In this document: positions 37,101-37,994 of the stretch, one piece after another
Numbering within the stretch: position 1 is the first letter of the stretch
How the letters are laid out: every line of letters starts with the position of its first letter
Assembly (NCBI RefSeq): GCF_963921235.1
Contig: NC_086099.1
Span: 93,992,001 to 94,056,000 of the forward strand
Direction: 5' to 3'
From: Mobula hypostoma
Lineage: Eukaryota
Length of the DNA stretch: 64,000 bases
Program-made: the position numbers and the translations under genes
The notes under the pieces: generated by a model
What the model was told of the DNA's origin: nothing
Database searches by the model: none
Seen by the model: the letters and a program-made list of their open reading frames with translations, nothing else

Positions 37101-37400
37101 GAGACAAAGTCACTGGTAGATACAAAGCAGCTTCTTTATTCGACACAACAAGGTACAGCAGGCATCTTACAGATGAAGACGCTTTCGGTGGAAAGGTCTG
37201 CTAGCCCAATATGGGCTCAGTATTTATATGCTAAACACAAAAGGCAATTGCTACTTACAAAGTTATAGACAATGCTTCCTTTTGAAACTACATACAAACA
37301 CCACACCTTCTGACTTCATCCTTTCCTCCTGACGCCTACATGTCTCAGTTGGTACTCACAGCTTTTAGGAATGCAAGTTAAATCCACAATACATTTATAT

Positions 37401-37436
37401 GTCCTGACGAAGGGTCTCGGCCTGAAACGTCGACTG
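37401..37436 (+). ncRNA. Minimal type I hammerhead ribozyme motif
   Basis: gtc-CTGACGA-agg(gtctcgg)cct-GAAA-cg-TC-gac: intact catalytic core, stem II, palindromic mini stem III and stem I. Confidence 0.7.
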
Positions 37437-37544
37437 CGCCTCTTCCTATAGATGCTGCTTGGCCTGCTGCGTTCACCAGCAACTTTGATGTGTGTTGCTT
37501 GAATTTCCAGCATCTGCAGAATTCCTGTTGTTTGCGTTTAAAAA
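37401..37544 (+). mobile_element. Young Penelope-derived short element with hammerhead motif, A-tail and 13-14 bp TSD
   Basis: TSD AATACATTTATATG at 37388-37401 and 37545-37558; absent from the other LTR. Confidence 0.88.
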
Positions 37545-37994
37545 AATACATTTATATGGTATTTTACGTGCTAACATAGAGGACAATTAACATTTATAAA
37601 GTATAGATAATATTGCCTTCAAAACTACAGCATCTGGTCAAACTACGGCGTCAGCAGCGTCTGGTATTCACAGCTTTCAGGAAATGCATTGTTGTGAACT
37701 CAATCCACGGTACTTTGTCAAACAGAAGACCGGTGGCCAAGCCATTTAAGTGTAAATGAATCATCTACCCAAAAACTCACCCTACAGTCCCTCCTCTTGG
37801 CCCTCCTGGACAAAAATTAAATTTGTACCAGGAAAGGCCAACCTAGGATGATCTGCTCAAATAGGGCAGCAAGAACGCCCTGTCTCGAAATTCCACCCCC
37901 CCCCTCCAATTTTGTGTGCCTCGATATCTATCCTAGCATTCCCTAATCACTACCTACCAAATGTTAAGCAGAGAGGCTGTTCCAAGTCTATAGA

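What the first reader, a model, noticed from the sequence alone, without database searches (positions are those of the whole stretch)
37388..37558. ~145 bp hammerhead-headed retroposed unit with A-tail and clean TSD
Seen: the insertion starts exactly at the hammerhead (gtcCTGACGA-stem II-GAAAcgTC^gac; predicted cut after 37431). It ends in an A-run, has a 13-14 bp TSD and is missing from the sister LTR, so it postdates the provirus. Known: Penelope-like pLTRs carry minimal hammerheads thought to cleave as dimers through a palindromic stem III. Inference: a recently active ribozyme-bearing family, possibly a SINE- or retrozyme-like non-autonomous unit.
Basis: partly seen in the sequence, partly recalled or inferred. 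Interest (0 to 1): 0.7.

Follow-up and report, generated by a model that had tools for sequence, protein, structure and literature searches.

The report
Penelope stub starting at hammerhead edge
This 144-base insert is a short copy of the end of a very abundant Penelope-type jumping gene, not a mobile family of its own, but copies of that gene stop at the front edge of its hammerhead motif five to eight times more often than at control positions, likely because the gene's RNA begins there and the copying enzyme runs off its end.

Summary
The insertion is real: 37401-37544, flanked by a 13-14 bp TSD, absent from the sister LTR, starting at a minimal type I hammerhead motif (predicted cut after 37431). 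It is identical to the end of a long Penelope-like element (RT + GIY-YIG) with over 50,000 hammerhead-core matches in this genome. The 'A-tail' is the element's own TTTAAA plus the A-rich target, not poly(A). Short copies share the variants of long copies, so there is no separate SINE or retrozyme lineage. Genome-wide, 9.2% of anchored arms pass the edge-stop pattern, against 1.8% upstream and at most 1.1% at the predicted cut site. So the boundary is not made by ribozyme cleavage. Best reading (inferred): the element's RNA starts at this edge, and reverse transcription primed about 97 or 133-142 nt inside runs off its 5' end. A splice-acceptor roadblock or a protected or structured RNA end are not excluded. 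This scan has already reported the same pattern in this and other genomes.

The parts
37388..37400 (+). Left copy of the 13-bp target-site duplication (14 bp with the shared G at 37401)
   Evidence: sequence; single copy in the sister LTR
37401..37542 (+). Element-derived part: +1..+142 of the Penelope-like pLTR and tail; +1..+139 is identical to the same stretch of the near-full-length copy L061
37401..37434 (+). Minimal type I hammerhead motif: helix I GUC/GAC (3 bp here, 5 bp in longer copies), CUGACGA core, 4-bp helix II closed by G.U, GAAA, palindromic ACGU helix III without a loop; predicted cut after 37431
   Evidence: sequence; base counts; energies; activity untested
37497..37542 (+). 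'Tail' between the two inferred reverse-transcription start zones (about +97 and +133..+142)
   Evidence: inverted arms start at +86..+103 in 42 of 93 copies; two 3'-end clusters; PMC11167929
37543..37544 (+). Two extra A residues between the element's AAA and the right TSD
   Evidence: sequence
37545..37557 (+). Right copy of the target-site duplication
   Evidence: sequence
37074..37784 (-). Host LTR (3' LTR of a minus-strand LTR element) into which the stub inserted
   Evidence: 89% identity to the sister LTR over 544 aligned bases
37991..38299 (-). Second, longer copy of the same Penelope-like family (-165..about +134), no clear TSD
42182..42741 (-). Sister LTR holding the empty site

Best explanation
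The insert is a 5'-truncated copy of a young, very abundant endonuclease-positive Penelope-like retrotransposon, and it likely arose when the element's reverse transcriptase, primed inside the element's RNA, ran off a discrete RNA 5' end that is predicted to be a transcription start at the front edge of the hammerhead. Shown: identity to the end of RT + GIY-YIG elements; 13-15 bp TSDs typical of the family; two 3' start zones; a sharp excess of 5' ends at -4..+4, with half at 0/+1; no excess at the predicted cut. Inferred: the GIY-YIG endonuclease makes staggered nicks in AT-rich DNA; RT starts at about +97 or +133..+142 on an uncut RNA; when the template is the 5' end of the mRNA it runs off after 100-140 nt ('strong-stop'-like copy) and is joined to the second nick, often through 1-5 nt of microhomology; long copies come from the same start sites in the downstream pLTR of a tandem transcript. 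The stub lacks the upstream sequence, so it would be a dead end, and its hammerhead is weakened (3-bp helix I).
For: Identity and parent: (single frames holding both RT and GIY-YIG motifs in L079, L084, L092). Peak: 17 of 93 unselected copies start in -4..+5, 1.6-2.0 expected from flanking rates, and 0 of 20,000 simulations reached 17 in any 10-nt window. 11 of 42 inverted arms also end there. Genome-wide pattern counts: 4,854 of 52,548 at the edge, 705 of 38,566 at -29..-22, 1,095 of at least 97,558 at +29..+36. By-eye tally of the 100 hits listed: -4:8, -3:5, -2:3, -1:11, 0:26, +1:23, +2:8, +3:11, +4:5. The two local maxima sit on pyrimidine-purine steps (T-A at 0, C-A at -4), the usual polymerase II start pattern (recalled). 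An older, diverged family shows the same boundary in 8 of 23 copies with a recognisable core (judged by eye), with CAGT at the edge and an AT-rich island at -30..-26 (84% AT against 30-40% beside it). In vitro, an Anolis PLE protein starts RT at two internal sites, uses uncut RNA, and gives shorter products on 5'-shortened templates (PMC11167929, main text read).
Against: No RNA 5' end was observed. A cap-derived extra G is not the rule: 19 of 24 TSD-flanked edge copies have no extra bases; 5 have extras, 4 of them ending in G. The same bases fit a 3' splice site equally well (branch-like TACTMAC, pyrimidine tract, CAG/TAG), and in D. virilis Penelope the intron ends at helix I while transcription starts further upstream (PMC4209133 results; PMC2377424 passages). 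The peak also coincides with the 6-nt loop of a predicted hairpin in the young subfamily. 42 of 94 edge arms are joined to an inverted arm, where microhomology can bias the junction. Stops are also raised at +6..+30 and -20..-5. The link between edge copies and clean TSDs is weak (5 of 7 against 3 of 18; p 0.017 at one threshold, 0.058 and 0.30 at two others).
Confidence: 0.55

Rival explanations
1. Same element, but the boundary is a 3' splice site: RT copies unspliced RNA and is blocked by splicing factors or a lariat intermediate at the acceptor next to helix I.
For: Branch-like TACTCAC/TACTAAC at -20..-14, a pyrimidine tract and CAG (-5..-3) or TAG (-1..+1) in nearly all of 76 long arms. 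Diverged families also have a pyrimidine tract plus CAG ending at +1. Shoulder of ends at -20..-5 (6 of 93). The D. virilis intron ends at helix I (PMC4209133).
Against: No edge arm of 94 carries a shared upstream exon; the one upstream piece (L216) is not joined at a GT donor. The strand is C/T-rich throughout, and AG at 0/+1 is also needed for helix I. The older family lacks the TACTAAC-like motif at the same place.
Confidence: 0.17
2. Same element, but the boundary is made after transcription: a longer RNA is trimmed 5' to 3' up to the folded or protein-bound hammerhead, or is nicked in a hairpin loop, or cDNA ends are resolved by fold-back at this structure.
For: The peak matches the 5' strand of helix I and the loop (-2..+3) of a predicted -14.6 kcal/mol hairpin. 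Many inverted junctions use self-complementary bases here. The Anolis hammerhead cleaves only with the element's protein, which suggests protein contact near it (PMC11167929).
Against: 9 of 41 non-inverted copies also stop here, so fold-back alone cannot explain it. The older family has another upstream sequence yet seems to share the boundary. The folds are no better than shuffles (z -0.1 to 0.4).
Confidence: 0.2
3. An independent non-autonomous SINE- or retrozyme-like unit whose ends are defined by the ribozyme and which copies itself.
For: Thousands of short arms share one 5' boundary; some have clean TSDs (24 of 94 edge arms); one three-copy tandem of about 440 bp exists (L076); retrozymes are reported as PLE derivatives (bioRxiv 10.64898/2026.07.22.740005).
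Against: No private variants: at all five polymorphic sites 16 short and 39 long copies share both alleles, and each short copy is as close or closer to a long copy than to another short one (16 of 16; the long set is larger). Cleavage would give a 5' end at +32: 1 of 93 copies starts at +29..+35, and the genome-wide rate is the lowest of three windows. No poly(A); two 3' end classes; the locus is a monomer.
Confidence: 0.06

Closest known systems
5'-truncated and inverted-repeat insertions of endonuclease-positive Penelope-like elements, Neptune/Nematis type (10.1101/2021.04.23.441226 = PMC8557442, passages; PMC3846280, passages)
   Same: RT plus C-terminal GIY-YIG, Cys motif between them, pLTR in partial tandems, adjacent inverted copy, optional tail, hammerhead in the pLTR, TSDs
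   Different: The passages read do not describe a sharp genome-wide pile-up of 5' ends at the hammerhead edge; TSDs here are 13-15 bp (8-10 bp in the rotifer passages) and the tail is about 35-45 nt
Anolis Poseidon element PAc in vitro (PMC11167929, main text parts 1-2 of 4)
   Same: Two internal RT start sites that define the tail, AT-rich targets, uncut RNA as template, no ends at the hammerhead cut site
   Different: PAc's ORF starts in helix II; here the first in-frame ATG is at +92 (some copies) or +170; the text read reports no preferred 5' stop
Minimal hammerheads of metazoan PLE pLTRs (PMC4209133, results and discussion read)
   Same: Type I core, unpaired base after A9, short helix I, palindromic loop-less helix III, many dispersed single copies
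   Different: Helix II is only 4 bp and closes with G.U instead of the conserved G10.1-C11.1 in 73 of 76 arms; cleavage not tested here
Non-LTR retrozymes (PMC7229834, search listing only; bioRxiv 10.64898/2026.07.22.740005, part 1 of 5 and passages)
   Same: Non-coding, type I hammerhead, related to PLE pLTRs
   Different: Those are tandem arrays with a hammerhead in each unit; this is a monomer with a TSD, no lineage of its own and ends away from the cut site

Membership tests
Endonuclease-positive Penelope-like element (parent) | [quoted passage not shown] | tested here: met
   Pfam RVT_1 E 1.3e-5 and GIY-YIG E 2.3e-4 on L061, both just under the curated cut-offs; single frames with both YIDD and YIGET motifs in L079, L084, L092, L028, L044
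Endonuclease-positive Penelope-like element (parent) | pLTR in partial tandem directly upstream of the ORF | tested here: met
   L057 and L043 run from the hammerhead and tail into the ORF start
Endonuclease-positive Penelope-like element (parent) | Adjacent inverted 5' copy with an optional 30-40 bp tail | tested here: met
   42 of 93 copies have an inverted arm starting at +86..+103; 34 of these 42 have an exact TSD of 11 bp or more
Neptune/Nematis clade | Zn-finger-like Cys motif between RT and endonuclease | tested here: met
   CKRNKCYTC seen by eye in the translations
Neptune/Nematis clade | Placement in an RT phylogeny | not tested
   no tree built
Minimal type I hammerhead | CUGANGA / GAAA / UH core with helix I and II | tested here: met
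   sequence; no Rfam match at gathering score
Minimal type I hammerhead | Palindromic, loop-less helix III (dimer only) | tested here: met
   ACGU self-pairs, 4 bp, -3.1 kcal/mol
Minimal type I hammerhead | G10.1-C11.1 pair | tested here: not met
   position +23 is T in 73 of 76 long arms and C in 3 (this set leans to the young subfamily through my search anchors)
Minimal type I hammerhead | Self-cleavage | not testable with these tools
   needs an in vitro assay
SINE | Lineage of its own, apart from the partner element | tested here: not met
   shared variants and distances
SINE | Poly(A) or repeat tail | tested here: not met
   A-run of 4 or less in 84 of 93 copies; templated
SINE | Defined 5' end | tested here: inconclusive
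   17 of 93 copies share it, 51 run further upstream, 25 are shorter
SINE | Internal polymerase III promoter or tRNA/5S/7SL head | not tested
   only the blank Rfam scan
Non-LTR retrozyme | Tandem units, each with a hammerhead | tested here: not met
   monomer at this locus; no tandem array here
Non-LTR retrozyme | Unit ends set by the cleavage site | tested here: not met
   1 of 93 at +29..+35; at most 1.1% genome-wide
Non-LTR retrozyme | Circular RNA | not testable with these tools
   only contigs of runs guessed to be RNA were available

The most novel reading that the evidence does not exclude
Roughly 15,000 arms in this genome are fossil 'strong-stop' cDNAs: Penelope-like elements start their mRNA at helix I of the hammerhead, prime reverse transcription 100-140 nt inside that uncut RNA and run off its capped end. 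Genomic copies would then map the start site to the base, and the hammerhead would act as a 5'-terminal structure or recognition signal rather than as the cutter that defines the copied unit.
Probability: 0.4. Interest if true: 0.55.

Novelty: new member of a known kind. Interest (0 to 1): 0.33.

Why it matters
The single insert is ordinary. The family pattern bears on an open question: what the hammerhead of Penelope-like elements does and what RNA is copied. Thousands of copies stop at the ribozyme's front edge and almost none at its cut site. This argues against cleavage defining the template and gives one exact base to test by CAGE or 5' RACE. It also warns that such stubs can be mis-annotated as a SINE family.

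Tried and rejected
RNA evidence: no run on record as RNA was listed. Contigs of six runs guessed to be RNA were laid (one flagged probably DNA). They showed no GT..AG joint among those listed (15 of 146 shown, all 5) and cannot show starts; taken as no evidence either way. Loose ends at -2 in two runs (2 and 3 contigs) are too few to use. Spliced template: no shared upstream exon in 94 edge arms. Poly(A) tail and ribozyme-cut 5' end: rejected. Folding of the insert is no better than shuffles and does not give the hammerhead fold, as expected of a dimer-type motif. The top-30 hit set was not used for counts because the query itself selects for copies reaching +1. An automatic long/short classifier for the older family called 10 long and 13 short, but 5 of the 13 are pyrimidine-rich upstream (4 judged long by eye, 1 unclear); 7 of 30 loci had no recognisable core and were dropped. 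Literature searches listed no paper on a 5'-end peak at PLE hammerheads; only six papers were opened, none in full, and no supplements were read (Fig. S2 of PMC11167929, on genomic and RNA ends, may bear on this).

Full report
Numbering: +1 is the G of GTCCTGA (window 37401); the base before it is 0.

Observation. The window shows a 13-bp direct repeat at 37388-37400 and 37545-37557 around 144 bases that begin GTCCTGACGAAGG. The surrounding sequence is one LTR (37074-37784) of a minus-strand LTR element. The sister LTR (42182-42741) has one slightly diverged copy of the target and no insert. The LTRs are 89% identical over 544 aligned bases, while the insert matches other genomic copies at 100% (19 such hits listed, its own place included), so the insert is most simply the younger event. 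The hammerhead motif is as described: GUC/GAC helix I, CUGACGA, a 4-bp helix II, GAAA, and a loop-less palindromic ACGU helix III, with the predicted cut after 37431. Rfam finds nothing at gathering score in the window.

What it belongs to. Many copies run upstream through a C/T-rich region into a frame with GIY-YIG and RT motifs. Pfam gives RVT_1 (E 1.3e-5) and GIY-YIG (E 2.3e-4), both just under the curated cut-offs, and five loci hold both motifs in one frame. A CKRNKCYTC motif between the domains points to the Neptune/Nematis type (10.1101/2021.04.23.441226, passages); no tree was built. In tandem copies L057 and L043 the sequence continues past TTTAAA into the ORF leader, so the insert's 3' end is an internal point of the element. 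The window's +1..+139 equals the same stretch of the near-full-length copy L061. Exact counts: 3,145 for a 32-mer at the 3' end and 50,694 for a 31-place hammerhead pattern. A second copy on the minus strand at about 37991-38299 extends 165 bases further upstream.

The A-run. Of the seven As, three are element sequence, two are TSD and two are extra. In 93 copies the run is 3 in 45, at most 4 in 84 and never over 8; 18 read on into the ORF leader. It is not poly(A).

The 5'-end test. I took 93 of the first 100 listed places (chosen by their 3' end only; 2 run beyond the fetched DNA) and mapped where each begins. 17 of 93 begin in -4..+5, against 1.6-2.0 expected from the rates on either side; none of 20,000 constant-rate simulations reached 17 in any 10-nt window. 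51 extend further upstream and 25 are shorter. One begins at +29..+35, around the predicted cut. 42 carry an inverted arm that starts at +86..+103, the known tail offset, and 11 of those arms also end in -4..+5. Of 41 non-inverted copies, 9 begin in the peak. Genome-wide I counted anchors preceded, eight bases away, by four bases that all differ from the element: 4,854 of 52,548 (9.2%) at -4..+3; 705 of 38,566 (1.8%) at -29..-22; 1,095 of at least 97,558 (at most 1.1%) at +29..+36 (the denominator used a longer anchor). The ratios are 5.1 and at least 8.2; correcting for the four-base filter suggests roughly 15,000 arms. These count arms, not insertion events. A by-eye tally of the 100 hits listed puts 49 at 0 or +1 and 8 at -4. 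In an older, diverged family, 8 of 23 copies with a recognisable core lack the family's upstream sequence, judged by eye; 7 of 30 loci were dropped.

Is it a family of its own? No sign of it. At the five polymorphic sites in +5..+139, 16 edge copies and 39 long copies share both alleles, and every edge copy is as close or closer to a long copy than to another edge copy (the long set is larger). The 94 edge arms examined (from 90 loci's list) end at two places, 38 at +89..+103 and 42 at +126..+143, so the 144-bp form is one of two sizes. 42 of the 94 abut an inverted arm; 24 have a TSD directly, 19 of them with no extra bases and often 1-5 nt of overlap, 5 with extras of which 4 end in G.

Mechanism. 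An Anolis PLE protein nicks both strands of AT-rich DNA and starts RT at two internal sites on uncut RNA, and no RNA reads ended at the hammerhead cut (PMC11167929, main text). The two 3' clusters, the 13-15 bp TSDs and the empty cut site here fit that. The remaining question is the stop at 0/+1. I favour a transcription start (inferred): the maxima lie on pyrimidine-purine steps, CAGT resembles an initiator (recalled consensus), an AT-rich island sits about 30 bases upstream in the older family's long copies and TTTCAAAT lies at -32..-25 in the young one, and both arms of many inverted insertions stop together. Against it: no RNA end was seen, an extra cap G is not common, the same bases fit a splice acceptor like the one at helix I in D. 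virilis (PMC4209133; PMC2377424, passages), and the peak coincides with a predicted hairpin loop in the young subfamily. I give 0.55 to run-off from a start site, 0.2 to trimming or structure, 0.17 to a splice roadblock and 0.06 to an independent unit. That the insert is a Penelope-like stub I hold at about 0.95. The hammerhead in this copy has lost two pairs of helix I (3 bp, -5.6 against -7.7 kcal/mol for helices I plus II), and the young subfamily has G.U in place of G10.1-C11.1 (73 of 76 arms), so cleavage is predicted to be poor.

Novelty. Truncated, inverted and solo pLTR insertions with minimal hammerheads are described (PMC4209133; PMC3846280, passages). Searches listed no paper on a pile-up of 5' ends at the hammerhead edge; six papers were opened, none in full, no supplements. 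This scan has noted the same pile-up before, in this genome (e1-8034529) and others (e1-7858714, e1-9848060, e1-10278228); these are unchecked notes and not independent support. My start-site idea predates that look-up; the 'strong-stop' wording is taken from them. Verdict: an ordinary insertion of a known kind that carries a real, quantified and testable family-level signal.

Noticed in passing
window 37074-42741: Minus-strand LTR element with TG...CA ends, a 5-bp TSD (GTCAG), a purine tract and a primer-site-like sequence, a zinc-knuckle frame and an integrase frame. It interrupts a LINE-like RT fragment. The LTRs are 89% identical with one diverged block.
   Followed up: partly
window 1-11081: Satellite of about 363 copies of a 31-bp G-rich unit with GC skew above 0.9.
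   Followed up: no
L040, L068, L091, L096, L106: Small second cluster of 5' ends at -314..-288, around the ORF stop codon (5 of 93). Possibly another RNA boundary; too few to call.
   Followed up: partly
window 53499-54647, 52438-52649, 51577-51673: Older relatives of the same Penelope-like family (78-83% identity), one as an inverted pair.
   Followed up: no
L076 (G000:C1:46046900-46051800): Three hammerhead-bearing units in tandem at about 440-bp spacing, a retrozyme-like arrangement.
   Followed up: no
L048, L052, L112, L122, L153, L230: Short duplicated pieces of the element at junctions (for example GACGA just before 0, or repeated 33-nt tail units), suggesting template jumps.
   Followed up: no
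window 26571-27883 and 48552-50000: Two diverged copies (73-96% by block) of another repeat about 22 kb apart.
   Followed up: no
window 44823-45872: Inverted arms of 45 bp, 960 bp apart, around a short transposase-like frame (Tc1/mariner-like by recall).
   Followed up: no
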